From: Candidatus Poseidoniales archaeon
GTDB lineage: Archaea > Thermoplasmatota > Poseidoniia > Poseidoniales > Poseidoniaceae
Assembly (NCBI GenBank): GCA_003602575.1
Contig: QQRY01000055.1
Coordinates: forward strand, 10,395-74,394
DNA length: 64,000 nt
Direction of reading: 5' to 3'
Part shown: positions 24,433 to 47,800 of the stretch, one piece after another
Position numbering within the stretch: the first letter of the stretch is position 1
Layout of the letters: each line of letters opens with the position of its first letter
Notes under the pieces: generated by a model
What the model saw: only the letters and a program-made list of their open reading frames with translations
What the model was told of the DNA's origin: nothing
Databases searched by the model: none
Translations under genes and position numbers: made by a program

Positions 24433-24613
24433 GGTGGCACCATTCTTGTGGCAGCGCGTATCATGTTTGAGTGTTTGGTGTATCTAATTAGAAAACAACT
24501 GATTATATGACCTTCTTTAAGTGCTCAAGACAATGATTCGGCTTTCATATTTGAATGATATATTAACGCACGAATTAGGGCCGCGTTCAAATAGTGTAAG
24601 AAACGGCACAATA

Positions 24614-32926: not shown

Positions 32927-33609
32927 TGCTTGGACCTAAGAGTGCGGTTTTCACTACCGTCAGAGCAAGGAATGGAGAGTTATTCCACCTTGACTTACAT
33001 CTTGCAAGGCTTGCCAAACACGCCGCTGTATTAGGAATAGAAATCCCTGAAATTGAACTGCCTCCAGATTTAGATGGCTTAGTAAAAATTCAAGTCGATA
33101 CAAGTGGTGTTACCTACAGCGTCAAACCTTTTTATCAAGAAATACACATGGAGGCTGAAGGAATTACTGTTCCTGCGCCAAGATGGACACGTAAGGTAAA
33201 TGGAACTAAGCATGGAGATTGGCAGCCATACCGAGATATTACTGCTGAAGTATTCTCCAAAGGTGCTGATGCGGGCCTACTTGTCCATGATTTTTGTATT
33301 ATTGATGGCGACCGTGTTATGCCATTAGTGCTTGACCACGACGGCGTTGTCTGGATCAGTGATAGTAAATTGGGTGGAGTGTCGTCCGTAACCTTTGATG
33401 TTTGTAAGCAAGCGATTAAAGATGCTGGATTTATTATTAGTTCGGGCCGTTTAAACGAAAGATTGGTCGCTAGAGCCAAGGAGTTTGTACTACTTGGAAC
33501 AGGTATGGGTGCTGCCAGATTAACTGTCTTAGATGATGTCGATATCGGCGATGATAGCGATACTCTTCAACAAGTATGTATCACGGCACTTGGTGAAAAT
33601 TGGATTTAA
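32926..33609 (+). CDS. Class IV aminotransferase-fold protein, probable aminodeoxychorismate lyase (PabC-like)
   Basis: The N-terminal NGELFHLDLHLARLAKHAAVLGIEIP resembles the class IV (BCAT/ADCL) block. It sits immediately upstream of the PabB-PabA fusion. Its ATG shares a TGATG overlap with the stop codon of the giant gene. Confidence 0.55.
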   Translation: MLGPKSAVFTTVRARNGELFHLDLHLARLAKHAAVLGIEIPEIELPPDLDGLVKIQVDTSGVTYSVKPFYQEIHMEAEGITVPAPRWTRKVNGTKHGDWQPYRDITAEVFSKGADAGLLVHDFCIIDGDRVMPLVLDHDGVVWISDSKLGGVSSVTFDVCKQAIKDAGFIISSGRLNERLVARAKEFVLLGTGMGAARLTVLDDVDIGDDSDTLQQVCITALGENWI

Positions 33610-33675
33610 GGGACAAAGAAAATACTCTCAACATTATTGAAACCCAAGCACATGGGTTGACATGAGCGAGTATCT

Positions 33676-35925
33676 ATGAGCGACCAGGTTATTGCTTTGC
33701 AACACTGCTTGCGAACTAATGGATTACTTGGAAATTCGGCATTTAAATTCGGTTCGCCCGACGAAGTAGTATTTGCTTCGGGGGGCCCCAGTTCACATTT
33801 ATCTAATGCTTCAATGATTTGTGGGCCAAGTAAATTAAGAGTAATTATTCGACAACCTTCAGCAACCCTAATTGCTCCTAAAGAAACTCATAGCCCACTT
33901 AATGGAGATATAAAATTAACAAGTCAAAAAGAACCGTTTACTGCAAGATTTGAAGAGTGGCAACATGGTTCTTGGTATCATTCTAATTCCATTTCTGCAA
34001 AAAATATTTCAGATTTATTAGAGCAATTGAAACGATGGACGCCCCAAGAAGAATTTGAAAATAAGCCTTCAGAATTTACCCCCAACAAAGCATTCTGGGC
34101 TGGTAGTTTTGCTTATGATATGGTTCAATGGACTCAACCTATATCTCTACAATATCCGCCAAAAGAAGGAGAAATTCTTGCCATACTTTGGTTGGTTGAC
34201 AAATATATCGCTCATTCAAAAAACAGTGATGAAATAGAGGTTTTTTCTCATGATGGAAATTGGAAATCACTTGTCCAAAATATAATCTATGGAGATTTAG
34301 AACTCCCTATTATTGCAGTCCAACCAAGTAATGAATTTGTAGAGTCGAGTACTCATACAGATTTAGAACATGGTGAAATCGTTGAGAGAATCAAACGCGG
34401 AATCTCGGAAGGCCAAGTATACCAAGTTAATTTTGGTCGTTTTTGGTCTGGAAGGCTGGTCGAAGATCCCACTGTTATTTTCCACCGCTTACTAAAGTCC
34501 AACCCAGCACCATTCTCCAGCCTAATTTATGCTGAAGACTTGGGTTTAGCCATAGTTTCTAGTTCACCAGAAAGTTTGCTGAAATGTCAAGATGGAGAAA
34601 TCCGTACATCTCCAATTAAAGGAACTTATGAAATTGGTATTGATGCTATTGAAGAAAATGAATTACGAACACAGATGGTTGAAGACGTCAAAGAACGTTC
34701 AGAACACAGGATGCTTGTCGACTTAATGCGTAATGATCTCTCAGCAGTTTGTGATGTTGGTAGTGTTCAAATCGAGCGTTTTGATGTCGAAGCATACACT
34801 AATGTTCAGCACCTTGTATCTCATCTAAAAGGAAATTTATTGGCTAATGAAAATGGTCTTACTGCATTGAATTCGATTTTCCCTGGCGGAAGTATAACCG
34901 GTTGTCCTCGAACAATGGTCTGTGCTGTAATCGACGAAATTGAGCAAAAGCCTCGTTCTTTTTGGACGGGCTCTGCTGGATGGGTCGATGTTCACTCAGG
35001 AGATAGTTCATGGAATATACTGATTAGAACTTTACAGGCCGGAAAAAAAGAAGGAAAGTGGCTTGGAAAAATAGGTTCAGGCGGGGGGATTACAATACGT
35101 TCTACAGCTGAATTAGAAGTTCAAGAAACATACTGGAAGGCTGATGCATTACGCTCTGCTTGTGGCTGGAATAAACAGAACAAGAACTCTCAATCGAAGG
35201 GAGAATTATCGATATATCCTTTGGAAATCGAACAATGTAATACTGATGCCGGCGATGGTAAAGTCAACACCTTTGAACAATGGAAAAATAGTACTGATGA
35301 ATGTGGAGTTTTATTGATTGATAATCTGGATTCTTTCACACTAAATATTGCTCATTCCATCGCCGGAATAGGCCATAATGTAACTATTCTCACGGGCCGT
35401 GGAGATCTGGCTGAGGAGCTTTCAGACCCGACTGCTCTATGCGACATATTAGAAATTCTAAATCCAAGCCATATCATAATTGGCCCTGGCCCGGGAACTC
35501 CAAGCGATTCTCTACTATCAAAAGCAATCTCAACACATGCTTTAGCACAACAAATTGACTGCTCGGTTTTAGGAATATGTCTTGGTCATCAATCGATTGC
35601 AGAAATGGTAAATGGGACGGTTGTCAAGTCTCCAAATGGAGCGGTACATGGAACTCCGATATCCTGTAATCATGATGGAAAAGGAGTTTTTGAAGGATTG
35701 AGTTCTCCTCAAAATTTTACAAGATATAATTCATTGACAGTAAACATAGACGAGGAGAATTCTCCGTTATCAATATCGGCAAGAGATGAAAATGGAGAAA
35801 TAATGGCATTGCGACATGATTCTTTACCAATTTTTTCTGTTCAATTTCATCCTGAATCCATCGGCTCCCCTAATGGTAAGAGATTATTAGAAAATTTTCT
35901 TAAATTTAATCGGATGCTTGAATAA
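33676..35925 (+). CDS. pabB: Aminodeoxychorismate synthase, fused component I (PabB) and glutamine amidotransferase (PabA)
   Basis: Chorismate-binding motifs are SPIKGTYE (Lys as in PabB PIKGT, not the anthranilate synthase PIAGT) and FPGGSITGCPR. The C-terminal class I GATase shows LLIDNLDSFT, catalytic GICLGHQSIA and VQFHPES. Confidence 0.9.
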   Translation: MSDQVIALQHCLRTNGLLGNSAFKFGSPDEVVFASGGPSSHLSNASMICGPSKLRVIIRQPSATLIAPKETHSPLNGDIKLTSQKEPFTARFEEWQHGSWYHSNSISAKNISDLLEQLKRWTPQEEFENKPSEFTPNKAFWAGSFAYDMVQWTQPISLQYPPKEGEILAILWLVDKYIAHSKNSDEIEVFSHDGNWKSLVQNIIYGDLELPIIAVQPSNEFVESSTHTDLEHGEIVERIKRGISEGQVYQVNFGRFWSGRLVEDPTVIFHRLLKSNPAPFSSLIYAEDLGLAIVSSSPESLLKCQDGEIRTSPIKGTYEIGIDAIEENELRTQMVEDVKERSEHRMLVDLMRNDLSAVCDVGSVQIERFDVEAYTNVQHLVSHLKGNLLANENGLTALNSIFPGGSITGCPRTMVCAVIDEIEQKPRSFWTGSAGWVDVHSGDSSWNILIRTLQAGKKEGKWLGKIGSGGGITIRSTAELEVQETYWKADALRSACGWNKQNKNSQSKGELSIYPLEIEQCNTDAGDGKVNTFEQWKNSTDECGVLLIDNLDSFTLNIAHSIAGIGHNVTILTGRGDLAEELSDPTALCDILEILNPSHIIIGPGPGTPSDSLLSKAISTHALAQQIDCSVLGICLGHQSIAEMVNGTVVKSPNGAVHGTPISCNHDGKGVFEGLSSPQNFTRYNSLTVNIDEENSPLSISARDENGEIMALRHDSLPIFSVQFHPESIGSPNGKRLLENFLKFNRMLE

Positions 35926-35958
35926 TTAAGACCAATTGCATTGACTCGAGGGAAGCAC

Positions 35959-36345
35959 ATGCCAACATGCAGGTTCTGTTCTGGGACATATACCAGAGAA
36001 AATTTCATTCATGGAAATGGCCCTCGCGCTCAAGTTTGTGCTAGGTGCGGGGTAGAGAAGAATTTCATTACTGAGGAAGAAGCCGCAAATCTATTCGATG
36101 ATAAATTACGTAATGCGAGACTATCGATTGTCGCTAGAAGATATAGTATGTTCCTTTACATTCCAGCACTTTGGACTCTATGGATTATGTTCCTAAGTTC
36201 TGTACAACCTTGGGGAATTTATTTTCTGTTGATCTTGGTTGCTCTAACTCTATTTGCACCGGTATGGTTCTTCATACGTAGTGCACAGTTTGCTGGTGAT
36301 ATGGCAAGATTAACTCCCGCATTCGACCGTCCAAAAGGACATTAA
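35959..36345 (+). CDS. Small zinc-ribbon membrane protein
   Basis: ATG at 35959. CRFC...CARC forms two CxxC pairs, followed by two TM helices (MFLYIPALWTLWIMFL and IYFLLILVALTLFAPVWFFI). Confidence 0.55.
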   Translation: MPTCRFCSGTYTRENFIHGNGPRAQVCARCGVEKNFITEEEAANLFDDKLRNARLSIVARRYSMFLYIPALWTLWIMFLSSVQPWGIYFLLILVALTLFAPVWFFIRSAQFAGDMARLTPAFDRPKGH

Positions 36346-37625
36346 TTCTTTGCGTGAATCTTCAGTACGTCGCCGTCGACTAACTCATGTTCTGAACCTA
36401 CTGTTCTTCGGCTACGTCCATCGGTTCCTCTGATGAATCCATCACCTAAATCTGAATGAACTTTGTATGCTAAATTCTTAGCTTGAATATTATTTGGAAC
36501 GACAAAGGCATCTGGTAGAACTTTACCTTCGCTATCGGTCCATTGATTCTCATCTTGAACCGGATAAACTACAATATGGTCTAATTCTTCAAATAAAACA
36601 GTGTCAATAATAGTTGAAACTCCAGTATTGTTATTTTGAGTTAGGCGCTCTTGCATATGTTTTAGAGCACCAATTTGGGCCTCTGATAAGTTTTCAGAGT
36701 TTGAAACTTCGAAGGTTTGCTGGCCAGATATATAATGAATTAATCCTGCAGATTCTGCTCTTCGAAGGGCTAATTCCATATCCGCCATACAAGGTATTAC
36801 TCGACCATTAGTTTGAAAATTATAATCAATATCTTTTGGAGCGATGTCAGCCTTATTTGCTGCGATATGAATTGGGAATAGTGATTTTCTTATCTCTATT
36901 GCAAGACTCTTGAGCGTGCTTGGTGTCCAGTCCCAAGGCGGTGAGGTTTCTTGATTGATTTTTTTGAATGAATCAAAAGCGAGATTTATTGATTGAAAAG
37001 AGGAGCCTAGTCCAGTGAACCTGTCATGTAAAAAGGAAATCATTCCTTTCTCACCTTCTGCTTGAACTCTTCTAACTCCTCTAACCCAACCATCGTTTAG
37101 TATTCCACAAATCCAAGCATCTAATTCATCACTAAGGAATGATATCTCTTCACTCATACTCGCTTTCGCAGCCTCGGGTGTTTTTGCTGGGTCTTGTGGG
37201 TTTCCTTCGATATCTGTTGAAGCAGAAGCATCGACTACCTGAATTAGGGCATCACAATTTGCAAGGTCTGAAAGAAAGGCATTACCTCTACCACGGCCTT
37301 CACTTGCGCCAGGGACTAATCCTGCAACATCGACTAGAAAACATGGAACTAATCGCCTAAAACCAATACAAGATCCTGTACGCGGGTTACAGATACTACC
37401 TTCTCTCTCATCATCGGGAGAAACTGGTTCTAGCCTTCCATCAGATTCTAATTTTTCACGTAACTCTTTACATGGGCAGGGTTTTCTTGCGGCGATAAAG
37501 GCAACCCCTACATTTGGTTCAATGGTACAGAAGGGATAATTTGCGATGTCTACTTTAGCCAATGTCGCTGCACTGAAGAATGTCGACTTACCAACATTTG
37601 GCTTTCCAACCAAGCCAATTCGCAT
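36342..37625 (-). CDS. Obg-like (YchF/OLA1-related) GTP-binding protein with a C-terminal TGS-like domain
   Basis: G1 GLVGKPNVGKST, YchF-like ANYPFCTIEPNVGV, G3 DVAGLV and canonical G4 NKAD. The C-terminal DGDVLKIHAK is TGS-like. Confidence 0.85.
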   Translation of the reverse strand: MRIGLVGKPNVGKSTFFSAATLAKVDIANYPFCTIEPNVGVAFIAARKPCPCKELREKLESDGRLEPVSPDDEREGSICNPRTGSCIGFRRLVPCFLVDVAGLVPGASEGRGRGNAFLSDLANCDALIQVVDASASTDIEGNPQDPAKTPEAAKASMSEEISFLSDELDAWICGILNDGWVRGVRRVQAEGEKGMISFLHDRFTGLGSSFQSINLAFDSFKKINQETSPPWDWTPSTLKSLAIEIRKSLFPIHIAANKADIAPKDIDYNFQTNGRVIPCMADMELALRRAESAGLIHYISGQQTFEVSNSENLSEAQIGALKHMQERLTQNNNTGVSTIIDTVLFEELDHIVVYPVQDENQWTDSEGKVLPDAFVVPNNIQAKNLAYKVHSDLGDGFIRGTDGRSRRTVGSEHELVDGDVLKIHAKN

Positions 37626-37638
37626 GAGTTGAATCTCC

Positions 37639-39816
37639 TCAAGCGCCTAAGATTGCTTCTACCAAATCTTTCTTGGTTCCAGATGATGAAACTCCCAAGG
37701 ATTCTGCTAATTCTACAAGTTCTGCTTTCTTCATCTTGTTCAATTCTGCTTCAGAAGGTGTTGAGGATGCTTCTTCTGAATCATCTACTTCTTCTACTTC
37801 TTCTGCTTCTTCTGCAGGCAATAATTGTGCACCTATTCTAGCTAGAGATATGTCTAATTCTGGGAGATTTATTTTTCCATCGCCGTTAAGGTCAATTGCA
37901 GCAACTAGGCCATCGATTTCCCATGGTGGGAAGTCGCCAACATCACTATTCTTGAGCGCTTGTTGGAATTCAAAACTATCTATTTCTCCAGACGAGTCCA
38001 AGTCTATTGAGCCGAAGAATTCGAATACTGTTTGCCCGCTAGATTTGAGATAATCGAGAAGCATTACCAATTCTTTTGCTGGCCCTTTGCTCTCAACTTC
38101 CTCTTCGTCTTCTTGTGATTCTTCTTCGGGGAATTCGGTAATCTCGTCATTGTGTAATTCCGCGTTAACTGCGATAATGGTAGTCCCGCCATCGCTTTCT
38201 TCAGATTCTCCTACAATGATTTTGGTTGTAACACCGACTCCTCTTCCGAGTAATTGTTGAATTGTAGTGACTCCACCTGAAAGCGTGTAGGTGTCTATGT
38301 CGGTTACTTCTTGTCCAACTTCCACCATCTTGCTGGATGAATTTCCTGTTCTAATCAGTACAAGTATAGACATAATCGAGGCAATTGGTACTAAGTAGAA
38401 TAATGCAGATGCTGTAAGGTAAAATCCGCTAGATGATGCTACAACATCTTCGACTGCTGATTCATTTACTGCGATTTCGGTAAATCCACCAATCATCATT
38501 GTAATAGTAGAGGATATTCCTCCAAACAGAATAAACCATACCGCTAAGTTAGCCTTTGGGGAATCTGCTAAATTATTGCCTGATGCAAGAGGATAGGATG
38601 CAAAAATTGTTGAAACCATCATTAAACCACCGACTGTAAACATGAAACTATTGTCAAGCATTTCCGCCATATCTCCCATTTTTGCTGTGTCAGTAAATGT
38701 GTCCATACTGGTGAAATAGCCTCCAACTGCAAATAATGGAAGTGCGAACATGGCTAAAGTTGCAGCTAACGCGCCTGGATTCTTCAAAATGGCTGATGAA
38801 TTGGTTGCTGCTGTTGCTAGCAGATTTACGACTGTAGCAAGGATTGGAATTAGTGAAAAGGTCAGTAATAATGCTCCAATATTAGTCAAAATACCACTTG
38901 CTCCAACGGACCCTACAAAGAACGGAGGGACTGTGATAAACAGTAGAATCATACCGGCATTAAGTAGTGAACCCGACCAAATCGGTGTTTGGGTTGTATA
39001 TGGGATGATGTGGTATGCAACTGCAAATATCAGTGCTAAAGGAACCCAACCATTGAGAATTTGTTCAGCCATCCAAACTGTTTGGGTCGAGTCGAGAAAC
39101 TCTCCAAGAAGATAGAAGGTCGAAGCGACTAGTTTTGCTACCAAGGCCATTATAAAGAACCAAGCTGACACTGAGGTAGTACCATCTTTACGCATGGAAT
39201 AAGTTGCTAATGCATTGATTAGAACTGCTGTGAAAAGCATAGTTGTAACTCCATAATTAATTATCATCGAAACAAAATCAAGCCTAGATGCTTCATCTGT
39301 AATGTCGATAAATGAGAATATGATTGGAATCAATATCAAATTCAGAGATAGTACTGCAGTATATATGACTGCAACCATTGATGCGCTGGCCTCGCTTGCC
39401 AATCGATTATTTGCTGAGCGAGATATTGCAACAAATGCTCCACCGACCATCAAGTAAAGAAAAGCAACCTTTAGAGTTGCCAGTGTGAACTCTTGTAATG
39501 CTGAGCCATCATCATATGACCAGCCAATGCTTGCAAGGGAGTCAAGAGCGGTTGGATCATACTTATGCCATATTGCTAAAAATCCTGAGATTGTGGCTAA
39601 TAAAAACCATCCTGAACCAAATTTCATCCATGTACGGCTTCCACTTCCTGGTCTATCGCTGAATAAATCAACCAAGCCAACAGGCGCTTTATTCATCAAG
39701 AATAAGGAAAATTGACGCAAAGGCTCGCCCATTGTCCCTACGCCATTTGTCGTGAAATATGATGCGGCCATTAGTGAGATTACAACTACTGTTGCTGAGA
39801 TAAAGACTGTTTCCAT
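37639..39816 (-). CDS. Polytopic membrane protein (about 13 TM helices) fused to an acidic linker, two canonical EF-hands and a SAP/HeH (Rho-N-like) C-terminal motif
   Basis: EF loops DLDSSGEIDSFE and DLNGDGKINLPE both fit DxDxxGxIxxxE. The terminal LNKMKKAELVELAESLGVSSSGTKKDLVEAILGA fits the helix-extended-helix SAP/Rho_N pattern. The ATG is preceded by AGGAGGTG, which overlaps the upstream stop codon. Confidence 0.75.
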   Translation of the reverse strand: METVFISATVVVISLMAASYFTTNGVGTMGEPLRQFSLFLMNKAPVGLVDLFSDRPGSGSRTWMKFGSGWFLLATISGFLAIWHKYDPTALDSLASIGWSYDDGSALQEFTLATLKVAFLYLMVGGAFVAISRSANNRLASEASASMVAVIYTAVLSLNLILIPIIFSFIDITDEASRLDFVSMIINYGVTTMLFTAVLINALATYSMRKDGTTSVSAWFFIMALVAKLVASTFYLLGEFLDSTQTVWMAEQILNGWVPLALIFAVAYHIIPYTTQTPIWSGSLLNAGMILLFITVPPFFVGSVGASGILTNIGALLLTFSLIPILATVVNLLATAATNSSAILKNPGALAATLAMFALPLFAVGGYFTSMDTFTDTAKMGDMAEMLDNSFMFTVGGLMMVSTIFASYPLASGNNLADSPKANLAVWFILFGGISSTITMMIGGFTEIAVNESAVEDVVASSSGFYLTASALFYLVPIASIMSILVLIRTGNSSSKMVEVGQEVTDIDTYTLSGGVTTIQQLLGRGVGVTTKIIVGESEESDGGTTIIAVNAELHNDEITEFPEEESQEDEEEVESKGPAKELVMLLDYLKSSGQTVFEFFGSIDLDSSGEIDSFEFQQALKNSDVGDFPPWEIDGLVAAIDLNGDGKINLPELDISLARIGAQLLPAEEAEEVEEVDDSEEASSTPSEAELNKMKKAELVELAESLGVSSSGTKKDLVEAILGA

Positions 39817-39828
39817 TCATCACACCTC

Positions 39829-40164
39829 CTATTCGACTATTACCTCTCCAATGAAGGAGGCTACAATTGTTCCAATACCAATTAAAAAGCCAATCAGGTA
39901 ATACCAAATTCCACTGCCGCCAAGATTGCCGATGAAGGGCACTATATCGCCAATAATTGGCATTGAGTCCCAACCAAAAACATTAGCGAATAAGGCGAAT
40001 AGGCCAATAATTCCTACGAACATGAGAGTCAAAACAACCCTTCCAAAGGCTGGTTGTCCAGTTCCTACTGTTGTATCTGGTAAAATCGCATTGTTTGACA
40101 TATCTTCACCCATGACCCCGTAGGGGTCAATCCGTCCACTGGAAGGGCAGTCATAAAGATTCAC
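39829..40164 (-). CDS. Small membrane protein (2-3 TM helices), translationally coupled to the EF-hand membrane protein
   Basis: Hydrophobic segments VVLTLMFVGIIGLFALFANVF and IWYYLIGFLIGIGTIVASFIG. The ORF-track start is GTG, with internal Met alternatives. Confidence 0.5.
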   Translation of the reverse strand: MNLYDCPSSGRIDPYGVMGEDMSNNAILPDTTVGTGQPAFGRVVLTLMFVGIIGLFALFANVFGWDSMPIIGDIVPFIGNLGGSGIWYYLIGFLIGIGTIVASFIGEVIVE

Positions 40165-40187: not shown

Positions 40188-41354
40188 CTAAAAAGAGCGC
40201 AATCTGTTGAGCAAATTGCCTCGTCTCGGTTTTGAAATTCCAAGAGGAACTGGTAAATCGGATTCTAATGCTAATTCCTCTCGCCAGACAGCTTGACATT
40301 CGCACTCTAGTCCGTCAAATTCTGTCAAATCTCCAGAGACTGCATAATTCTCGATTGCTGTAATAACTTGACTATCACAAGATCCGCAATTATGTGCCCC
40401 CCTAATTTTACCACCTGCAGTTGGGTGGATTATCAATCTAGAGATTTGGTCTGCATCACCATTAACTCCTCCTTTTGGATGAATTAAAGGATGTGCTCGG
40501 CGTATCATTTCCACTAAAGACCAAAGCCATGGCGGCCTATACTCGTTATTTCTATGTAGTCTATCGATTACTGTTCCCCTTTGGATATTCATTGGATTTA
40601 CTGATATTTCATCACTTTTTTCTGCTACAGCAGAGATCCATTTGACTCCGTGTTCAAGTGCATCGTTCTCACTCATGAAAGGTGGTTTAAACATAAGATA
40701 TGTCTTGATCCTCAGATTAAATTTTTGCAGATTCGCAACTGCTCTATCCCATGATTTGGTAGTAAATCCTTTGTTGACATGGAAACGTAATACTTCATCA
40801 TCATAAGCTTCAAGCCCAATCGCAACAGAAAAATTATCATTTATTGAAGTCGCCCAAGCGAGTTTCTTTTCAGTCAATTGCTCACATCTACTTTCAACGA
40901 TTAATTCTTTGCCCATCTCATTGCAGTCTCTAAGAACTGTCTCTTGAAAATCAACCGGAATTTCTCTATCTTCTAACAGAGACCCTGAAGTATATACTTT
41001 TACCATTTGATGGTCTTTGAAATCGTCAAAGTCCGCTTTGGCTTTATTCCATTGTGCGTGTAGATTATCGCTGGTTACGTCGTCTCTTGTATCATTAAAA
41101 TAACCACAGAAAGTGCAACCGCTAGACCACCACCAATGGCAGCCCTTGGTACGTAAAATTACAGTTATTGCAGTACAAGGTGTTCCATCGGATAATGTTT
41201 CAGGAGTATAATAAACAGTTGCTGGCTCATTACCATCCCAAGATTGTTGTTTAGCCTTAGCCCATGGAGTATTTGCAGGCGCTTTGACTAAGTCGTGAAT
41301 ACGAGCGCCTTTACCGCCCTCGCCGACCAATGTCAATGATTTGGGTGCTACCAT
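40188..41354 (-). CDS. Radical SAM-like protein (TIGR01210 / RaSEA-like family, tentative)
   Basis: Cys cluster GCHWWWSSGCTFCGYFND (C-x7-C-x2-C) near the N-terminus, followed by a TIM-barrel-like alternation. Strong Shine-Dalgarno AAGGAGGA before the ATG. The family assignment is from memory of the motif context. Confidence 0.6.
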   Translation of the reverse strand: MVAPKSLTLVGEGGKGARIHDLVKAPANTPWAKAKQQSWDGNEPATVYYTPETLSDGTPCTAITVILRTKGCHWWWSSGCTFCGYFNDTRDDVTSDNLHAQWNKAKADFDDFKDHQMVKVYTSGSLLEDREIPVDFQETVLRDCNEMGKELIVESRCEQLTEKKLAWATSINDNFSVAIGLEAYDDEVLRFHVNKGFTTKSWDRAVANLQKFNLRIKTYLMFKPPFMSENDALEHGVKWISAVAEKSDEISVNPMNIQRGTVIDRLHRNNEYRPPWLWSLVEMIRRAHPLIHPKGGVNGDADQISRLIIHPTAGGKIRGAHNCGSCDSQVITAIENYAVSGDLTEFDGLECECQAVWREELALESDLPVPLGISKPRRGNLLNRLRSF

Positions 41355-41409: not shown

Positions 41410-42261
41410 TCATTGTTTGATTGGCTTGAAAATTATTGTTGAACCAGCTTGAACAAATTGTCCTTTAGGGAATTGAGAGTTTTTATCCTCTGCAGATATA
41501 ACTGCTGGTTTGTACTTATTTGCTGGAACTCTAACATCAACTCGAGAACCGAGTCTAATCATTCCATAACGTTGCCCTCTTCTTACCTTGGAATCAATCG
41601 AAAGCCACGGAACAATTGTACGTGCTAATGCTCCTGAAATTTGACAAACTTCGATTCTTGTTTGGTCTTCCGCCAAAAATACTGTTCTAACTCTCTCGTT
41701 ATTTTCGCTTTCTTTCTTCATCGCAGGAAGAAATGGTCCTCTCTTACGGCCTTTTCCAACTCTATGTTCCATTCTCTCAATTGTAGATTCAAATGGTGCA
41801 CGATTGACGTGGACGTCAAGAGGCGACATGAAAATTGCAATTCTCCACACATCTAAGTCGGATTCTTCGCCCTCTTTTACAGCCTCAAATCGCTGTTCAG
41901 TAGAAAATTTTAGAGTTTCTTCTAGTGGTTCGGGATACCAGGTTCCTGTTTGAGGGTCTTCCTCAATCGTTGAGTCGGACATTTCCTTTGAAGATGGTCG
42001 CCGACCAGTTGCCCTCTCTCTTTTTGCAAACATAACATGCCCATCAGCAGGAGAGACTAGAACTCCTTCATCTGAAGGAATCGCTCTATCCGGGTCTCTC
42101 CAGAAATTAACAAAAAATGCTGAAATCATCCAACATAATATTCCAAATAAGTGAACTAGGCCATTTAGTGAATCGATTGTAACTCCGATAATGATAGCAC
42201 TTGTCCCCATCATAAAAGTAATCAAAACCGGGGCGTGACCGCCTCGGGCCAATCCACCCAT
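41410..42261 (-). CDS. Phosphatidylserine (archaetidylserine) decarboxylase proenzyme, short type with an internal insertion
   Basis: Contains FWRDPDRAIP, LVSPADGHV, FMSPLDVHVNRAP and a self-cleavage-region-like LGSRVDV. There are N-terminal TM helices. About 40 extra hydrophilic residues sit between the SPADG and DVHVNR blocks. Confidence 0.75.
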   Translation of the reverse strand: MGGLARGGHAPVLITFMMGTSAIIIGVTIDSLNGLVHLFGILCWMISAFFVNFWRDPDRAIPSDEGVLVSPADGHVMFAKRERATGRRPSSKEMSDSTIEEDPQTGTWYPEPLEETLKFSTEQRFEAVKEGEESDLDVWRIAIFMSPLDVHVNRAPFESTIERMEHRVGKGRKRGPFLPAMKKESENNERVRTVFLAEDQTRIEVCQISGALARTIVPWLSIDSKVRRGQRYGMIRLGSRVDVRVPANKYKPAVISAEDKNSQFPKGQFVQAGSTIIFKPIKQ

Positions 42262-42269
42262 TCAATCAC

Positions 42270-43082
42270 CTAGTTGTCTGCCCATGGGTCGGAGTCATCT
42301 CCCCAAGTAGGCGCTGGAGTTTCTGTTTTCGGTTCTTCAGAGGGTGTCTCTTCTGGTGCCTCTTCAGCTACTTCTTCAACTGCTTCAACCGCTTCTTCGG
42401 CAGCAGCCTCGATTGCTTCATCAACTGCTTCTTCGTTGTAATCTTTATCTTCATCAGCCTTGACTTTCTCAACAGATGCATTTGCTGCTTCAGCCTCTTC
42501 GATGGTCATTTCAGCGGCTCTAGCACTTACCATTTCTTCCATACGCTCGTCAAATGCACGAGCCATATGTTGAGATTTCCTTTCTGCTTCAACTGCCTTC
42601 TCAATCATCTCATAGCGTTCTTTAATCGCCTTGTTTAAGTCTTCAAACAGCGACATGTGAGCAACATACCAGTCATCTCTTGCCTTCATTTCAGAGACTG
42701 CCAATTTTAGATCGTCATCTAATTCAGTGGCAATATTGAATATTTTACCCAGTCGATCTTTTTCTCGTGAGTACTTTTCTTCCATCTTCTCCAGTTCTGG
42801 TTCAAGATGCTCAACCTTCTTCGAAGCCTTGACTGCTCTAAGTTCAAGTTCTCTAATTCTAACTTCTTTTTCTGAAAGAAGCGCTTCTTGAGTCTCCTTT
42901 TCGATTTCTCTCTCAATAATTTCTTTCTCGAGTACTTCAATTTCAGCACGTGAATCCATCAAGTCTTTTTCTTGACCTTCATATGCAGCGAATAACTTCT
43001 GAACACGCTCGGTTTCTGTCGCTAATGCTTCTTCTAGTGCTTGAATCCTTACTTCAGGTGTAATGGTTCCTTCTTCGGTCAT
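42270..43082 (-). CDS. Coiled-coil protein with a highly acidic Ala/Glu-rich C-terminal tail
   Basis: 270 aa with heptad-like E/K/L-rich sequence throughout. The tail is EAVDEAIEAAAEEAVEAVEEVAEEAPEE...DPWADN. Shine-Dalgarno GGTGAGGAA precedes the ATG. Confidence 0.6.
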   Translation of the reverse strand: MTEEGTITPEVRIQALEEALATETERVQKLFAAYEGQEKDLMDSRAEIEVLEKEIIEREIEKETQEALLSEKEVRIRELELRAVKASKKVEHLEPELEKMEEKYSREKDRLGKIFNIATELDDDLKLAVSEMKARDDWYVAHMSLFEDLNKAIKERYEMIEKAVEAERKSQHMARAFDERMEEMVSARAAEMTIEEAEAANASVEKVKADEDKDYNEEAVDEAIEAAAEEAVEAVEEVAEEAPEETPSEEPKTETPAPTWGDDSDPWADN

Positions 43083-43179
43083 TTCCTCACCCGGAGGCTT
43101 GCCTCCACATTAGTCCACTCGCATTGAGCATATCAAGCCGACGCTTAATTAGGTCAGTAAATAGGTAAACTGAAGTAAA

Positions 43180-44139
43180 TTATACAGAATCAGTAAAATT
43201 AACTAATTCCTTTGCAATACCAACTTCTCCCATAGAATGTCCTGAGTCAGGGATTATACTTAGTTCACTATTTGGTAGAGCTTTATGTAATTCCCAAGCG
43301 CTTCTTGTAGGGCAAACCACATCATACCTCCCTTGAACAATAAATGTCGGAATGTGTTGGATTTTATCGACATTGTTCAAAATATGTGCTTCTTCGACAA
43401 AAATTGCATTGATGAAGTAATGACATTCAATCCTGGCAAAGGCAACTGCAAAGTCTAAATCTTCTGCCTTTTCTAAATATTCAGTATCGGGAATTAAGCG
43501 GCTAGTAGCCATTTCCCAGCGCGTCCACTCCTTAGCAGCAGCCCTTCTAATCTCTACATCTTCACTTGTCAAGCGACGATGGTATGCCTCGATTAGATTT
43601 TCTTGCTCTTGTTTAGGAATATGGCCTCTATAGGAATCAAAAGCATCAGGGAATATGTGGCTGGCTCCTTCTTGATAAAACCAATGAAGTTCACTTTTCC
43701 TACACATGAAAATTCCTCTAAGAATCAAACTTTGTGCTCTATCTGGATGGTTTTGAGCATAAATTAACGCTAATGTTGAGCCCCATGAACCACCAAATAC
43801 GTGCCAAGTATCGATTCCCAAAAATTCTCTTAAGGCTTCTATGTCCCCAACCGAACTATGAGTGTTGTTATCTTCTAATTCGGCATATGGTTTTGATTTC
43901 CCACACCCTCTTTGGTCGAATTGAATAATATCGAATTTTTCAGGATTAAAATATTGACGATAAGAGGGTTGACTACCTCCACCCGGTCCGCCGTGTATCA
44001 CTATCACAGGCTGCCCTTGTGGATTTCCGCATCGCTCCCATGCTATGGTGTGCAAGGGAGATACCTGTAGATTACCGGTTGAATGTGGTTCGATTTCAGG
44101 ATACAAAACGTCACTTAACGATGAAGACTGAGTGGACAT
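43180..44139 (-). CDS. pip: Proline iminopeptidase (prolyl aminopeptidase, alpha/beta hydrolase)
   Basis: Oxyanion-region HGGPGGG and nucleophile elbow GGSWGSTLAL. The C-terminal IPDSGHS carries the catalytic His. The 319-aa length is typical. Confidence 0.9.
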   Translation of the reverse strand: MSTQSSSLSDVLYPEIEPHSTGNLQVSPLHTIAWERCGNPQGQPVIVIHGGPGGGSQPSYRQYFNPEKFDIIQFDQRGCGKSKPYAELEDNNTHSSVGDIEALREFLGIDTWHVFGGSWGSTLALIYAQNHPDRAQSLILRGIFMCRKSELHWFYQEGASHIFPDAFDSYRGHIPKQEQENLIEAYHRRLTSEDVEIRRAAAKEWTRWEMATSRLIPDTEYLEKAEDLDFAVAFARIECHYFINAIFVEEAHILNNVDKIQHIPTFIVQGRYDVVCPTRSAWELHKALPNSELSIIPDSGHSMGEVGIAKELVNFTDSV

Positions 44140-44225: not shown

Positions 44226-44849
44226 ATGGCGATTAGAAAAGCAACTGATGTCTTCCATGATTGGGCTTTGGCAGGAAAAGACAAAGGTATGGAAAAGGGA
44301 CATTCTAGTGCAGTTGGAGAGATGCTTGGTTTTATCTTCCAACATGTAGAGAAAAAACAAGAAAAGTTCTCTGCTATTGATGTAGGGTGTGGCAATGGAT
44401 GGGTTGTACGCTTATTGAAAGAACATCCTCTTTGTTCTTCTGCTGAAGGTATCGACGGTGCTGAGGCAATGATTGCGAAGGCTAAACAAATAGACATTGA
44501 AGGTGATTATTCAGTACGTCAATTACCGGAATATGCACCTTCAAAGCGTTATGACATCATACACTCGATGGAATTTCTATACTATCTTGAAGACCCCAAA
44601 TCAATGCTAAAGTTGTTTTACGATAATTGGGTTGCTAAAGACGGTTGGTTAGTTGTTGGAATAGATCATTATCTTGAACATGAAGAAAGTCTAAGCTGGC
44701 CAGAACATGTCGGAGTGCACATGACTACGTTAAGCAGACAAGAGTGGAAAGATGCTTGGCATGATGCCGGATTTACCAATATTTCTAGTTGGCAAGCCGG
44801 TGAAAAAGATTCAGTAACATTGGTTATTGCTGGACAAAAAGTGGACTAG
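44226..44849 (+). CDS. SAM-dependent methyltransferase (class I)
   Basis: Motif I AIDVGCGNGWVVRLL. The ATG at 44226 removes the ORF-track N-terminus that overlaps pip on the other strand. Confidence 0.75.
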   Translation: MAIRKATDVFHDWALAGKDKGMEKGHSSAVGEMLGFIFQHVEKKQEKFSAIDVGCGNGWVVRLLKEHPLCSSAEGIDGAEAMIAKAKQIDIEGDYSVRQLPEYAPSKRYDIIHSMEFLYYLEDPKSMLKLFYDNWVAKDGWLVVGIDHYLEHEESLSWPEHVGVHMTTLSRQEWKDAWHDAGFTNISSWQAGEKDSVTLVIAGQKVD

Positions 44850-47800
44850 TCTTCTGGGTCTTTTTTCGGCCCGCATAACTTGATATCCCCGCGATTAAAT
44901 GGACATTTCATACATGAAATCTTATCTGCACCTTGTAGCCTTTCAGGCTCTGGAACGGATTCTGGCTCAGCGGCTAATTGTGCAATCCAATCCAAATGAT
45001 TTTGCAAATCGTTCTTGGCATCTAGATACTGTTTTTCTGTTAACTCTACACTTCGACCAGAAGCCCCAATTAGTATCGATGGTGGTAGTATTTTACGTCT
45101 TTCTTCTACCGGTTTATCTGACTCTATTGCTTCTAAAGCCATTGAATAGAGTGTCAGTTGAAGTCTATGTTCATGAAGAATTTCTTTCTCTGCTTCGGTT
45201 TGAGGGTAAATATCCAATAAATCTCCTTTGACAATTTGAAGAGGAGCGCCTGCATTAGCATCTATTGGATTGAAGTTTGATCTACAATCGGTAGTTTTCA
45301 AATCTGAAATCTGTAAGTAGCCCTGTCCATCGGTGTCTCGGAATGCTAAAACCAAATCTGCTCGGCCATCAAATGAAATTTCTACTTGCCCAACATTTGC
45401 AATTTTACTTGGGCCATCTATAGTGAATCCCATACGATAAACGTCATTCATTTTTACTATATTTTGATAGAAAAATGGCAGTTCAGTCCTCAAACCTTCT
45501 GGTATTCTATTATGGTGCTTTTCACCTTGAGCATAGCGACCAATTAGACCTTTGTCAACTAATTTAGATAAATGTGTTAAGCGGTGTTTTAGTAATGATG
45601 TTCTTTTGTTCTCCCTACTAGTTCCTGAGTTGGTAAAGCCTTCTTCTAATAGTACTTCTTCTACAGTTTTTTCATCACCCAATCGATTGTCATTTTTATG
45701 TTTCCAACTCTCTGGAAGAGGTAATGTTGGTGGTGAATTTACTTGGGAGGGGTTCTTGAGGCCGACTTCTAATAGACGATGCATGATTGTACCAAATAAG
45801 GTCGGACTAGCAAACTTTTCACTGTCATCTCTAACAATATCATTGGTGTTTCTCAAGTAAAATGGTTCAGGGATCCATCCTTTAATTTCAGTAAGCCAAT
45901 GACGACGCGGACATTGGAAGGTAGAGTCAAGGCCGTGAGCACTCATCCTAATTCCGTGTTGTACAATCAAATTTGTACTATCTTTCGCTTCCATTATAGG
46001 GGGGTTTCCAATTAGTGCAGATGCTATTTTCTCGATATTCTTCCAACTATTCAATGGGGTTTGTTCAGAGATTGTATCGAAGCATTCAGGAGAATGATAA
46101 ATCCTAATCGATTCGATATTTTTTCCACCAAACATCGAGTTCTTGAACAGTGAGTAGGGATTTATGCTTACATTGGTCTCACTATAAGATTCTAAAGGCT
46201 TATTGAAATCATCATTTGGTAAAAGCCACGGCGAATCTTCGACTTTATTCTTGTAAGATAAGCTTCTTAGCCCATCCATCCACATTGCACCCATGGTTTT
46301 CATCGATGGTTTGCTCTTGAAAAATAGATTATTGGTTGATTCTTCCAGACTAGAGGTTGTATTGGGGCTACCGACCACAATTAATCGATCTTTCACCCTA
46401 GTCAATGCGACATAAAATTCTCTTCTTCTCTCGGCTTGTCTTTGTGCTCCATCCATATTCTTAGCAAATTCCCAAAGACCGTCGTATGGTCTATCACGTG
46501 ACGCCCAAGGGTTGATTCGCCCAGATACAATTTCGGGAGTTACTAGAACATTATTTCTTGCTGCTAAAGATGAGTCTGATTTACCTGCATGGAACATTCC
46601 TGCTACAACTACTACCTTAGATTGTAAACCTTTAGCGCCGTGTATTGTCATAATTCTTACAGCGCCACCCGAAGGGATTGTTATCGCTTGTGGGCCTTTA
46701 TTGCCCAAGCCTTGTAAGGATTTTAGATGTGAATAAATCTCAGTTGGCTCATGCCCATATTCGCTTCCAATATTGTAAACCAATCCGCACCATAATTCTG
46801 CATTTTGTCTCGATGTATCATCGGGATAGGCAATCAATAAATCTGAATGGTCCAATACTATGTCTAAAACCTGATGTAGTGCTCCTTTAGTAACCAAACT
46901 AGCAATATGCTTTACAAGAGTTTTAGAGCGCTTTGTAGGTGCATTCTCATGAAGTACAGGCCACCAATTATCAGCAGTATTTTTACTAGAGAATATATCG
47001 TGAATCTGCCCGTCGCTTAAGCCCAATATCGGTGAGCGTGCAAATGAAACCGCAGCAAATTTAGAACTAGGGTAAGCGACTAAGTGAAGAACTGCCATCA
47101 AGGTTCTAACTACGGGACGTTGTAGCAACTCGCCCTGTCTATCTGAAATAACTGGTATGCCTTTCAATTCCAGCCTCTGCAATAAATCCGGAATGTGTTT
47201 TCTGGAATGTACCAAAATTGTGATGTCTTTGGGTTGAATATTTGATGACTCGCAGTCGATTTCAGTAAATGAGGATGAGTTACTATCCCATAGTTTGGTA
47301 TTTCTATTGGCAAGGAGGCTATGAAGCCTTAAGGCGATTAATTCATGCTCTAGATGAATATTCTTAGCATTAGGATTAGCAAATACTGGACTGATTGAAT
47401 TTAAGTCAAGTGACGGAATCTTTGTCACGGTTTGAAGTGGAATTAACCATTCTAATACACCTAAATTTTGATCATCGCGTGCAGGTTTCAATTCTTGTGC
47501 TTCAGCGTGCCAATCACCCGGTAAAGTGTAGTGCCTACTATCAAAAACATCATCAAAAATTCCATTCATTGTACGCATCAGATTATGCAATGTTCGATGA
47601 TTTGATGTAAGATCAATATGGCCGTGGATTCTTCGATTTAATCTTTCAGGAGAAACTTGAACATAGGTCTTTTTGCCCTTAGGAGAATCTTCAAATTCTG
47701 CACAAACATGATCCCATGGTTTGGATTCTTGCTTCGGACCGGTTGATGAATGTTGATTGGAAAAAGAACCTATTTCACCTCCAGCGCCAACAGGTCTCGG

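What the first reader, a model, noticed from the sequence alone, without database searches (positions are those of the whole stretch)
37639..40164. Polytopic membrane protein fused to a canonical EF-hand pair and a SAP/HeH-like DNA-binding-type tail, coupled to a small membrane partner
A domain of about 13 TM helices is followed by an acidic linker and two textbook 12-residue EF loops, DLDSSGEIDSFE and DLNGDGKINLPE. A second acidic stretch follows, and the terminal motif is LNKMKKAELVELAESLGVSSSGTKKDLVEAILGA. That motif matches the helix-extended-helix SAP/Rho-N pattern usually associated with nucleic-acid binding.

The gene is translationally coupled to a 111-aa membrane protein, because AGGAGGTG overlaps the upstream stop codon.

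Paired canonical EF-hands on an archaeal integral membrane protein suggest Ca2+-regulated transport or signalling. A membrane protein carrying a SAP-like motif could instead tether nucleic acid to the membrane. I could not assign the TM domain to any transporter family by eye.
Basis: partly seen in the sequence, partly recalled or inferred. Interest (0 to 1): 0.6.

Follow-up and report, generated by a model that had tools for sequence, protein, structure and literature searches.

The report
Metal-less oxidase-fold protein with Ca/SAP tail
The unassigned membrane domain descends from the catalytic subunit of a cbb3-type respiratory oxidase but has lost every haem and copper ligand; with its tiny partner it is a core gene pair of the abundant marine archaea Poseidoniales, here carrying a cytoplasmic calcium-binding and SAP tail, and its job is unknown.

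Summary
The gene at 37639-39816 (-) encodes 13 TM helices, an acidic linker, two canonical EF loops and a C-terminal SAP domain. A small 2-TM gene sits 12 nt upstream, and AGGAGGTG overlaps its TAG stop. That partner is 90 aa, not 111.

A family profile hits CcoN at E 1.6e-17. The AF2 model matches 3mk7_A at Z 36 (2.9 A over 427 residues). All six ligand histidines and the cross-linked tyrosine are replaced across 172 relatives, mostly by Phe or aliphatic residues, so the protein cannot be a haem-copper redox enzyme.

The A+B pair occurs in 199 of 201 Poseidoniales genomes. It was not found in the sister class-level family (0/8); the rest of the phylum gave one weak hit (about 230 genomes). 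It always lies in the array RaSEA-B-A-YchF-like GTPase.

The tail is cytoplasmic and evolutionarily labile: EF+SAP, EF only, SAP only, or none. It therefore modulates a core function rather than defining it. SAP and EF-hand modules are expanded in this genome.

Function is untested. The scan has reported this family before in other genomes, and my independent analysis agrees.

The parts
39829..40101 (-). Gene B: 90-aa, 2-TM partner protein. The ORF can be read from the GTG at 40164 as 111 aa, but homologues start at the Met at 40101.
   Evidence: Found directly upstream of gene A in 32/32 loci from three families of the order. Invariant residues are P17, P48, W66, G71 and G75. No Pfam, NCBIfam or PDB sequence match.
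39823..39830 (-). Shine-Dalgarno AGGAGGTG overlapping the TAG stop of gene B, 6 nt before the ATG of gene A
37639..39816 (-). Gene A: 725-aa protein made of a CcoN-like core, an EF-hand pair and a SAP domain
39655..39816 (-). Residues 1-54: family-specific N-terminal module. It holds an extra TM1 (2-24), an amphipathic helix (27-42) and the start of the most conserved cytoplasmic loop (G25, F39, K43, A44, D50).
   Evidence: It lies outside the structural match to CcoN, which begins at model residue 55. Loop 25-57 is among the best conserved segments.
38344..39654 (-). Residues 55-491: 12-TM haem-copper-oxidase subunit I (CcoN-like) core without metal ligands
   Evidence: Profile against PDB hits CcoN at E 1.6e-17. 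Foldseek's top 7 are all CcoN. VIA-align gives Z 36.0 to 3mk7_A. Ligand columns are replaced in 172 relatives.
38224..38277 (-). Residues 514-531: conserved cytoplasmic juxtamembrane motif (consensus G-x-TTIR-x-LL-xx-GVG-x-DT), also present in tail-less relatives
   Evidence: Positions 520 and 530 covary (R/D against Q/N or Q/T).
38077..38223 (-). Residues 532-580: acidic linker, predicted disordered
   Evidence: pLDDT 33-46; composition
37822..38076 (-). Residues 581-665: EF-hand pair, with loops at 37969-38004 and 37858-37893
   Evidence: Pfam. Centrin and calmodulin hits. pLDDT 82-91. Loops are canonical in 149/150 relatives.
37753..37821 (-). Residues 666-688: second acidic linker, disordered over most of its length
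37645..37752 (-). Residues 689-724: SAP / helix-extended-helix domain
   Evidence: PF02037 29.1 bits against a cut-off of 23.9. pLDDT about 91, with helices 689-694, 697-707 and 715-724.
37635..37640 (-). Shine-Dalgarno GAGGAG overlapping the TGA stop of gene A, 9 nt before the GTPase ATG
36342..37625 (-). YchF-related Obg-like GTPase with a TGS domain; conserved downstream neighbour
   Evidence: NF007171 423.3 bits (cut-off 387). Pfam YGR210-like_G4, MMR_HSR1 and TGS. Found downstream of A in 31/31 testable loci.
40188..41354 (-). RaSEA-type radical SAM gene (archaeosine biosynthesis family); conserved upstream neighbour
   Evidence: TIGR01210 289.2 bits (cut-off 212). Found upstream of B in 32/32 loci.

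Best explanation
Shown: gene A encodes a redox-dead descendant of CcoN, the catalytic subunit I of C-family (cbb3-type) haem-copper oxidases.
- It keeps the 12-helix oxidase fold and adds one N-terminal helix.
- Every haem or copper ligand, and the cross-linked Tyr, has been replaced, mostly by Phe or aliphatic residues.
- It is encoded as a translationally coupled pair with a 90-aa, 2-TM protein (B). The pair is a near-universal, single-copy, order-restricted core gene pair of Poseidoniales (Marine Group II archaea).
- In this genome A carries a cytoplasmic, flexibly tethered tail: acidic linker, canonical EF-hand pair, acidic linker, SAP domain.

Inferred:
- A and B form a non-redox membrane complex. 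Its working surfaces are the family-specific, highly conserved cytoplasmic loop 25-57 with the juxtamembrane motif 514-531, and the conserved outer loop 87-104.
- The tail is an accessory regulator or tether, because many relatives lack it.

Mechanism I commit to (about 1 in 3):
- The old oxidase scaffold serves as an ion- or proton-conducting, or ion-sensing, membrane module. It retains CcoN-shared polar residues in helix VIII (N331, T335) and conserved polar residues at its cytoplasmic entrance (E142, N201, T205).
- Where present, the EF pair modulates it in response to cytoplasmic Ca2+. It would do so calmodulin-style, by docking on the conserved amphipathic helix 27-42 or elsewhere on the cytoplasmic face.
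- The SAP end holds the complex near nucleic acid (nucleoid or ribosome).
For: Homology:
- Distant relatives P0135 and P0147 hit Pfam COX1 above the gathering score (43.2 and 42 bits against 34.8).
- The 20-sequence family profile hits CcoN chains 9g6b_A and 3mk7_A at E 1.6e-17 and 2.2e-17, against 0.52 for NorB.

Fold:
- The AF2 model of residues 1-535 has pLDDT 82.7 and pTM 0.85.
- Foldseek's top 7 hits are all CcoN (E 3e-9 to 1e-8, TM 0.66-0.70 and 0.75-0.79).
- VIA-align gives Z 36.0, rmsd 2.9 A over 427 residues to 3mk7_A, and Z 32 to NorB. Other oxidase and NOR families score Z 22-27, and nothing unrelated exceeds Z 9.5.

Ligand loss in 172 relatives:
- H60 to F (130 of 172); H207 to R or Q; Y251 to F (155).
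- H257 to F (152); H258 to F or G; H345 to I, L or V; H347 to N, D or T.
- No His column is conserved.

Distribution and context:
- 199/201 genomes and 24/24 genera of the order carry the gene.
- 0/8 genomes of the sister family in the same class carry it, and about 230 other genomes of the phylum gave one weak hit.
- B lies upstream in 32/32 loci.
- The RaSEA-B-A-GTPase array is conserved in all testable loci and is absent around the GTPase in the sister class.
- The genome has a separate, normal coxB-coxA-coxC oxidase. The family profile barely resembles it (hhalign probability 7%).
- No CcoO was found in this 87%-complete genome.

Tail:
- Pfam calls the domains.
- In the full-length AF2 model the EF (581-665) and SAP (689-724) domains are confident and the linkers disordered.
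- EF loops are canonical in 149/150 relatives.
- K+R counts are 11 inside against 2 outside under the CcoN-based topology.
- Tail classes among 172 relatives: EF+SAP 140, EF only 10, SAP only 4, none 18.
Against: - P0001 itself does not reach any Pfam COX1 score, and identity to CcoN is only 11-14%. Homology rests on the profile and on a predicted model built from a 20-row alignment.
- No experiment or expression data were available.
- A-B contact is inferred only from conserved adjacency and translational coupling.
- The ion-conduit idea is weak. The former cofactor pockets are filled with Phe or aliphatic residues, which argues against an aqueous pore through the old active site.
- No charged residue is conserved in the middle of the membrane.
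- The Ca2+ and SAP functions cannot be essential to the core role, since one whole family of the order lacks the EF pair.
- The ligand numbering of P. stutzeri CcoN is from my memory of the 3mk7 literature. It agrees with the canonical motifs seen in the aligned chain (H60; WWYGH; GPHH; GHVH).
Confidence: 0.8

Rival explanations
1. Membrane docking platform. A+B is mainly a structural anchor that holds nucleic-acid-associated machinery (nucleoid or ribosome/translation factors) at the membrane through the SAP tail and the conserved cytoplasmic face. It may work with the co-transcribed YchF-like GTPase, and the oxidase fold is just a stable 12-helix anchor.
For: - SAP domain at the end of a roughly 230-residue flexible cytoplasmic tail.
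- In this genome SAP is also fused to ribosomal proteins eL32 and eS1, to Pus10, to an FKBP, and to other proteins with 1-4 predicted TM helices. It therefore looks like a lineage-typical nucleic-acid-binding tag.
- Gene A is translationally coupled to a YchF-related GTPase with a TGS domain, and a tRNA-modification enzyme (RaSEA) lies upstream. The array is conserved order-wide.
- The cytoplasmic loops are the best-conserved parts.
Against: - SAP is missing in 28 of 172 relatives and in most of one family.
- A mere anchor would not need a conserved outer loop 87-104, nor a dedicated 2-TM partner.
- The GTPase exists without A/B in the sister class, so the linkage may be plain synteny.
Confidence: 0.2
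2. Pseudo-subunit. A+B is an accessory or regulatory component of another membrane complex, for example the aa3-type oxidase encoded elsewhere or another respiratory or light-driven complex. Dead paralogues often regulate active enzymes in this way.
For: - The genome keeps a complete coxB-coxA-coxC oxidase.
- Pseudoenzymes commonly act as regulators or scaffolds (general knowledge).
- Both membrane faces carry conserved surface patches.
Against: - The family is related to the C-family, not to the genome's own A-family oxidase (hhalign probability 7%).
- It is never encoded next to respiratory genes in the 32 loci examined.
- No CcoO partner was found.
Confidence: 0.15
3. It is still a redox enzyme (oxidase or NO reductase) that binds haem or metal through non-histidine ligands.
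For: - Fold and homology to CcoN and NorB.
- A few relatives carry His at the H207 (12 of 172) or H347 (7 of 172) columns.
Against: - All six ligand columns and the catalytic Tyr are replaced, mainly by Phe, Leu or Ile.
- No conserved His, Cys or Met column takes their place.
- No cytochrome c or cupredoxin partner is present. B is only a 2-TM hairpin.
Confidence: 0.03
4. Decaying relic or mis-called ORF with no function.
For: Loss of all catalytic residues.
Against: - An intact single-copy ORF without internal stops in 199/201 genomes and all 24 genera.
- Many invariant residues down to 21% identity.
- Conserved partner and operon.
Confidence: 0.01

Closest known systems
CcoN (FixN), subunit I of cbb3-type (C-family) cytochrome c oxidase, e.g. 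Pseudomonas stutzeri PDB 3mk7, 9g6b, 8smr, 6xkw, 9g83
   Same: - 12-TM subunit I fold: Z 36, rmsd 2.9 A over 427 residues.
- Profile-level sequence homology (E 1.6e-17).
- Shared structural motifs: W248 with W203; PIWS with PVYS; P298 with P256; N331/T335 with the N/T of MINGMMT; the P409 loop.
   Different: - All six His ligands and the cross-linked Tyr are lost.
- One extra N-terminal TM helix and a conserved cytoplasmic loop.
- No CcoO/CcoQ/CcoP genes; a 2-TM partner sits upstream instead.
- A cytoplasmic EF-hand/SAP tail.
- Found in Archaea. C-family oxidases are regarded as bacterial; this last point is from memory and was not tested here.
[quoted passage not shown]
   Same: - Same superfamily fold (Z 32 for NorB; Z 21.7-22.5 for qNOR).
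- The two qNOR rows are the only ones whose aligned range starts at model residue 1.
   Different: - Sequence similarity is far weaker than to CcoN (E 0.52).
- NORs keep the haem and FeB ligands.
fam02696 of Halobacteria, a distant homologue of oxidase subunit I noted by Meheust et al. 2022 (PMC9258230)
   Same: An unannotated archaeal protein family with only remote similarity to haem-copper oxidase subunit I.
   Different: - That family co-localises with oxidase or NOR genes and belongs to Halobacteria.
- I could not compare sequences.
- The paper's main text mentions Poseidoniales-specific families with calcium-binding domains but does not describe this protein.
Calmodulin/centrin-type EF-hand pairs, and Ca2+-regulated membrane proteins that carry them (e.g. 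LETM1, plant Rboh NADPH oxidases; from memory)
   Same: - Two canonical 12-residue loops in a helix-loop-helix pair.
- Best PDB sequence hits are centrin and calmodulin.
   Different: - Only one pair, fused by a disordered acidic linker to a prokaryotic oxidase-fold protein.
- Ca2+ binding is untested.
SAP / HeH / LEM-type motifs: SAF-A, PIAS, the Rho N-terminal domain, and the inner-nuclear-membrane HeH proteins Heh1/Heh2 and MAN1 (from memory)
   Same: - A roughly 35-residue helix-extended-helix that passes Pfam SAP.
- As in the HeH nuclear-membrane proteins, it sits on an integral membrane protein and faces the nucleic-acid compartment.
   Different: - Archaeal.
- Part of a lineage-wide expansion in which SAP is appended to ribosomal proteins, Pus10, an FKBP and peptidases.
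- Nucleic-acid binding is untested.

Membership tests
Haem-copper oxidase superfamily, subunit I (Pfam PF00115 COX1) | 12-TM subunit I fold | tested here: met
   Foldseek's top hits are all subunit I chains. VIA-align gives Z 36.0 (CcoN), 32.0 (NorB) and 21.7-27.1 (other oxidase and NOR families); the next unrelated fold scores Z 9.5.
Haem-copper oxidase superfamily, subunit I (Pfam PF00115 COX1) | Sequence match to the family model above the curated cut-off | tested here: inconclusive
   P0001 has no PF00115 hit. Relatives P0135 and P0147 pass (43.2 and 42 bits against 34.8). The family profile hits CcoN at E 1.6e-17.
Haem-copper oxidase superfamily, subunit I (Pfam PF00115 COX1) | Six invariant His ligands: low-spin haem (helix II, helix X), high-spin haem (helix X), CuB/FeB (helix VI, two in helix VII) | tested here: not met
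   In P0001 the aligned residues are F110, Q252, F299, F300, L387 and N389. None of the six columns is conserved as His in 172 relatives, and no conserved His column exists anywhere.
C-family (cbb3) oxidase, CcoN | Helix VII Tyr cross-linked to the CuB His (Y251 in P. stutzeri) | tested here: not met
   Phe in 155 of 172 relatives; F293 in P0001.
C-family (cbb3) oxidase, CcoN | Encoded with the cytochrome c subunits CcoO/CcoP (ccoNOQP operon) | tested here: not met
   The neighbours are RaSEA, B and a YchF-like GTPase in 32 loci. No FixO/CcoO (PF02433) match in the own genome, which is 87% complete.
EF-hand pair (PF13499/PF00036/PF13202) | Two 12-residue loops with ligands at positions 1, 3, 5 and 12, Gly at 6 and a hydrophobic residue at 8, flanked by helices | tested here: met
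   EF-hand_5 30.4 bits (cut-off 25.9) and EF-hand_1 29.4 (25.4). The pair model EF-hand_7 scores 26, below its cut-off of 30, in P0001 but passes in relatives. Loops are canonical in 149/150 relatives. The helix-loop-helix geometry is confident in AF2.
EF-hand pair (PF13499/PF00036/PF13202) | Binds Ca2+ | not testable with these tools
   Needs ITC or a 45Ca overlay on residues about 578-668.
SAP domain (PF02037) | Roughly 35-residue helix-extended-helix matching the family model | tested here: met
   29.1 bits against a cut-off of 23.9 at residues 692-723. Two main helices, 697-707 and 715-724, with pLDDT about 91. Relatives score up to 38 bits.
SAP domain (PF02037) | Binds DNA or RNA | not testable with these tools
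   Needs EMSA or anisotropy with residues about 685-725.

The most novel reading that the evidence does not exclude
A respiratory oxidase scaffold, probably acquired from Bacteria, has been converted in the ancestor of Marine Group II archaea into a new kind of non-redox two-subunit membrane machine. It would be an ion- or proton-conducting or -sensing module whose cytoplasmic face is gated by a tethered calmodulin-like EF pair. A SAP end would link it physically to the nucleoid or to ribosomes. That would be a prokaryotic Ca2+-signalling device built on an oxidase fold.
Probability: 0.2. Interest if true: 0.85.

Novelty: new variant of a known kind. Interest (0 to 1): 0.66.

Why it matters
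- Poseidoniales are among the most abundant archaea in the surface ocean and are uncultured. A near-universal, order-specific gene pair of unknown function is therefore a real gap in understanding them.
- I know of no characterised case of a haem-copper oxidase catalytic subunit that has lost all cofactors yet stays under strong conservation. It would be a clean example of a membrane pseudoenzyme being repurposed.
- If C-family oxidases are otherwise bacterial, it also bears on inter-domain gene transfer.
- Annotation pipelines that recognise the fold could miscall the gene as an oxidase and inflate inferences about microaerobic respiration.
- The EF-hand and SAP expansion in this lineage points to Ca2+ signalling and membrane-nucleic-acid tethering in archaea. 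Both are barely explored.

Tried and rejected
- Direct family scans of P0001 and of B (Pfam, NCBIfam) gave nothing for the TM core or for B. A single-sequence PDB search found only the EF-hand.
I used the genome search instead.
- Complex prediction for the A core plus B gave no verdict (score 0.01, below the mark). This is not evidence either way.
- A profile of B against PDB sequences gave only chance-level hits to chemoreceptor TM segments (E 0.1-0.3). Whether B is a remnant of the oxidase subunit II hairpin or of a CcoO/Q anchor could not be tested.
- hhalign of the family against the genome's own COX1 gave 7% probability and only one helix XI-XII patch. I rejected a recent paralogue origin.
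- Met-rich stretch M380-x2-M383-x2-M386 near the former haem site: I considered it as a Cu(I) motif and rejected it, because it is not conserved in the alignment.
- Literature searches found no description of this family (papers read). I could not retrieve the list of cbb3 proton-pathway residues, so the link from N331/T335 to the K-pathway analogue stays an inference.
Full report
**Observation.** The ORF at 37639..39816 on the minus strand encodes 725 residues. Hydropathy and AlphaFold2 secondary structure give 13 transmembrane helices, ending near residue 491. Five elements follow:
- an acidic stretch predicted disordered (residues 492-580; 21 D/E against 4 K/R);
- EF loop DLDSSGEIDSFE at 605-616;
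- EF loop DLNGDGKINLPE at 642-653;
- a second acidic linker (666-688);
- the terminal SAP-like motif (692-725).

Pfam supports these calls. EF-hand_5 scores 30.4 bits and EF-hand_1 29.4, both above their cut-offs. SAP PF02037 scores 29.1 against 23.9. Rho_N scores 21.5, just below its cut-off. The best PDB sequence matches are centrin and calmodulin, over the EF region only.

The upstream small gene ends in TAG at 39829-39831. AGGAGGTG (39823-39830) overlaps that stop, and the ATG of the large gene follows 6 nt later. Two details need correcting. Comparison with 32 orthologous loci shows the small protein starts at the Met at 40101, so it is 90 aa rather than 111. The same stop-overlapping Shine-Dalgarno arrangement (GAGGAG, 37635-37640) also couples the large gene to the next gene, a GTPase.

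**Identity of the membrane domain.**
- P0001 itself matches no Pfam or NCBIfam model in its first 530 residues.
- An exhaustive search of 1.84 billion representative proteins found only 97 relatives, so the family is narrow.
- Two of the more distant full-length relatives, at 27-30% identity, hit Pfam COX1 above its gathering score.
- A profile of 20 diverse members (alignment A2) matched solved cbb3-oxidase CcoN chains at E 1.6e-17 to 5.7e-15 across profile positions 110-445. NorB reached only E 0.52, and A- and B-family oxidases did not appear.
- An AF2 model of residues 1-535 (pLDDT 82.7, pTM 0.85) gave CcoN as the seven best Foldseek hits.
- An exhaustive VIA-align search gave Z 36.0 (rmsd 2.9 A, 427 residues; model 55-503 against CcoN 9-470). 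NorB followed at Z 32, other oxidase and NOR families at Z 22-27, and no unrelated fold exceeded Z 9.5.

Helices 2-13 are therefore the 12 helices of an oxidase subunit I. Helix 1 and the loop after it are additions.

**Loss of the active site.** In the profile alignment to P. stutzeri CcoN the canonical ligand motifs of the chain are visible: H60, WWYGH207, Y251...GPH257H258 and GH345VH347. The residue numbers are from memory of the 3mk7 literature and agree with the printed chain numbering.

I aligned 172 family members to the profile and tabulated those columns:

| CcoN residue | Replacement in the family |
|---|---|
| H60 | F in 130 of 172 |
| H207 | R or Q |
| Y251 | F in 155 |
| H257 | F in 152 |
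| H258 | F or G |
| H345 | I, L or V |
| H347 | N, D or T |

In P0001 the residues are F110, Q252, F293, F299, F300, L387 and N389. No column of the membrane domain holds a conserved His, and the alignment's invariant and near-invariant positions include no His, Cys or Met. The protein cannot bind the two haems and CuB in the known way. The mainly aromatic and aliphatic replacements suggest the pockets are simply filled.

**Distribution and context.**
- The family profile found one copy in 199 of 201 genomes sampled from the order, in all 24 genera, with no internal stops.
- It found none in 8 genomes of the sister family of the same class, and one weak hit (E 1.7e-4) among about 230 other genomes of the phylum.
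- Source names attached to close homologues identify the order as Poseidoniales (Thalassarchaeaceae/Poseidoniaceae).
- The 2-TM partner B lies directly upstream in 32 of 32 loci from all three families. Spacers are typically 1-14 nt, and the reading frames overlap slightly in a few loci.
- B has invariant P17, P48, W66, G71 and G75.
- The four-gene array RaSEA radical SAM, B, A, YchF-related GTPase is kept in every testable locus.
- In five genomes of the sister class the orthologous GTPase follows an unrelated large protein instead.
- The genome has a normal coxB-coxA-coxC oxidase on another contig. The family profile hardly resembles it.
- No CcoO was detected in this 87%-complete genome.

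**The tail.**
- By homology to CcoN, the C-terminus is cytoplasmic. Under that topology K+R counts are 11 in inside loops against 2 in outside loops.
- The full-length AF2 model shows confident EF (581-665) and SAP (689-724) domains joined by disordered acidic linkers, like beads on a string.
- Wherever the EF domain exists, the loops are canonical in 149 of 150 proteins. Position 1 is D, position 3 D or N, position 5 S or D, position 6 G, position 8 I, V or L, and position 12 E.
- The tail is not a fixed feature of the family. Among 172 members, 140 have EF+SAP, 10 EF only, 4 SAP only and 18 neither. One whole family of the order has only the short forms, and many species of this genome's own genus have lost SAP.
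- Both modules are expanded in this genome. SAP passes its cut-off in nine ORFs, against none of 14 control genomes. It is fused to ribosomal proteins eL32 and eS1, to Pus10, to an FKBP isomerase, to an M28 peptidase and to small membrane proteins.
- EF-hand pairs occur in at least six other ORFs.
- Meheust et al. 2022 independently noted Poseidoniales-specific families with calcium-binding domains (PMC9258230).

**Where the function may lie.** In a 31-sequence non-redundant set, the best-conserved segments are these:
- the family-specific cytoplasmic loop 25-57 (G25, F39, K43, A44, G57);
- helix 2 (W63, G67, W70, F79, W83);
- the outer loop 87-104 (A90, L91);
- the PIWS loop shared with CcoN;
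- polar positions E142, N201, T205, N331 and T335;
- the juxtamembrane motif 514-531.

Positions 520 and 530 of that motif covary strictly: R/D against Q/N or Q/T. This hints at a contact, although shared ancestry could also produce the pattern. Both faces of the membrane domain therefore carry conserved, family-specific surfaces. The protein is under selection for something other than redox chemistry.

**Mechanism.**

Shown:
- an oxidase subunit I fold and CcoN homology;
- loss of all ligands;
- order-wide conservation with partner B;
- a cytoplasmic EF/SAP tail that is dispensable in many lineages.

Inferred:
- A and B form a complex;
- the tail is an accessory Ca2+-responsive regulator and nucleic-acid tether.

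My best guess, at roughly one in three, is an ion- or proton-conducting or -sensing module that reuses remnants of the oxidase's cytoplasmic uptake path. The EF pair would dock, calmodulin-like, on the conserved amphipathic helix 27-42 or on the cytoplasmic face. The hydrophobic filling of the old active site argues against a through-pore. A docking-platform role (about 0.2) and a pseudo-subunit role in another complex (about 0.15) remain serious rivals. Residual redox activity (0.03) and a dead relic (0.01) are essentially excluded.

**Comparison with the known, and novelty.** The protein works on an oxidase scaffold, but it fails the defining features of an oxidase: the ligands, the cross-linked Tyr and the cytochrome c partners. 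It is a divergent, non-catalytic offshoot of the haem-copper oxidase superfamily, closest to the C-family, and not a member of the enzyme family. I found no paper describing it. The scan itself has reported the same family from other Poseidoniales genomes at least ten times. I reached the CcoN reading before consulting those notes, and my tests agree with them.

- the corrected partner start;
- the chain of stop-overlapping ribosome-binding sites;
- the tail-class counts;
- the ligand-column tabulation;
- the negative synteny in the sister class;
- the genome-wide SAP fusion pattern;
- the 520/530 covariation.

**Limits.** There are no experimental data. The model rests on a 20-row alignment. 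The A-B complex prediction gave no verdict. The origin of the family, bacterial transfer or deep branch, was not resolved.

Noticed in passing
Own genome outside the window: L039 (C27:5747-6388), L040 (C46:40042-40875), L041 (C55:63412-64302), L042 (C36:27671-29428), L043, L044, L045, L046 (C8:4901-6667): SAP domains are unusually common in this genome: nine ORFs pass the Pfam cut-off, against 0 of 14 control genomes. They sit as N- or C-terminal tags behind acidic linkers on ribosomal proteins eL32 and eS1, an FKBP isomerase, an M28 peptidase, Pus10 (internal) and two small multi-TM proteins.
   Followed up: partly
Own genome: C50:1295-2404, C28:1261-1440, C53:14073-14264, C35:68329-68496, C53:147802-147975, C52:46465-46620: EF-hand pair (PF13499) matches above the cut-off in at least six further ORFs, one of them with three pairs. 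Only 1 of 14 control genomes has any. I did not examine what these proteins are.
   Followed up: no
window 38224-38277 (residues 514-531 of gene A): In the conserved juxtamembrane motif, positions 520 and 530 covary across 172 relatives: R/D 46, Q/N 82, Q/T 42, with essentially no mixed pairs. This may be a salt bridge swapped for a hydrogen-bonded pair, but shared ancestry has not been excluded.
   Followed up: partly
window 40188-41354 (-): RaSEA-family radical SAM protein (TIGR01210, 289 bits) with the unusual cluster motif GCHWWWSSGCTFCGY (Cx8CxxC) instead of CxxxCxxC. It is conserved directly upstream of the B-A pair in all 32 loci.
   Followed up: partly
window 41410-44139 (-): Further upstream on the same strand lie a phosphatidylserine decarboxylase (41410-42261), an acidic coiled-coil protein of 270 aa with no family match (42270-43082) and an alpha/beta hydrolase (43180-44139). 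Together with the RaSEA-B-A-GTPase array they form a long head-to-tail run. psd is also upstream of RaSEA in L025 from another family.
   Followed up: partly
window 32923-35925 (+): A class IV aminotransferase-like ORF (228 aa) is followed by a 749-aa fusion of a chorismate-binding domain with a class I glutamine amidotransferase. This looks like a fused PabB/PabA or TrpE/TrpG with its lyase.
   Followed up: no
window 24521-32926 (+), 44846-49819 (-), 49816-53583 (-): Three giant ORFs of 2801, 1657 and 1255 aa flank the region. I did not examine them.
   Followed up: no
window 35941-36345 (+): A 134-aa ORF with two CxxC pairs (zinc-ribbon-like) followed by two hydrophobic helices. It converges on the GTPase gene and has no Pfam or NCBIfam match.
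   Followed up: no
L034-L038 (sister-class genomes): In five genomes of the sister class the YchF-like GTPase is preceded by a large ORF ending in a Lys-rich stretch and a ...FGPSIGG(L/F) terminus. This may be a C-terminal sorting signal of a surface protein.
   Followed up: no
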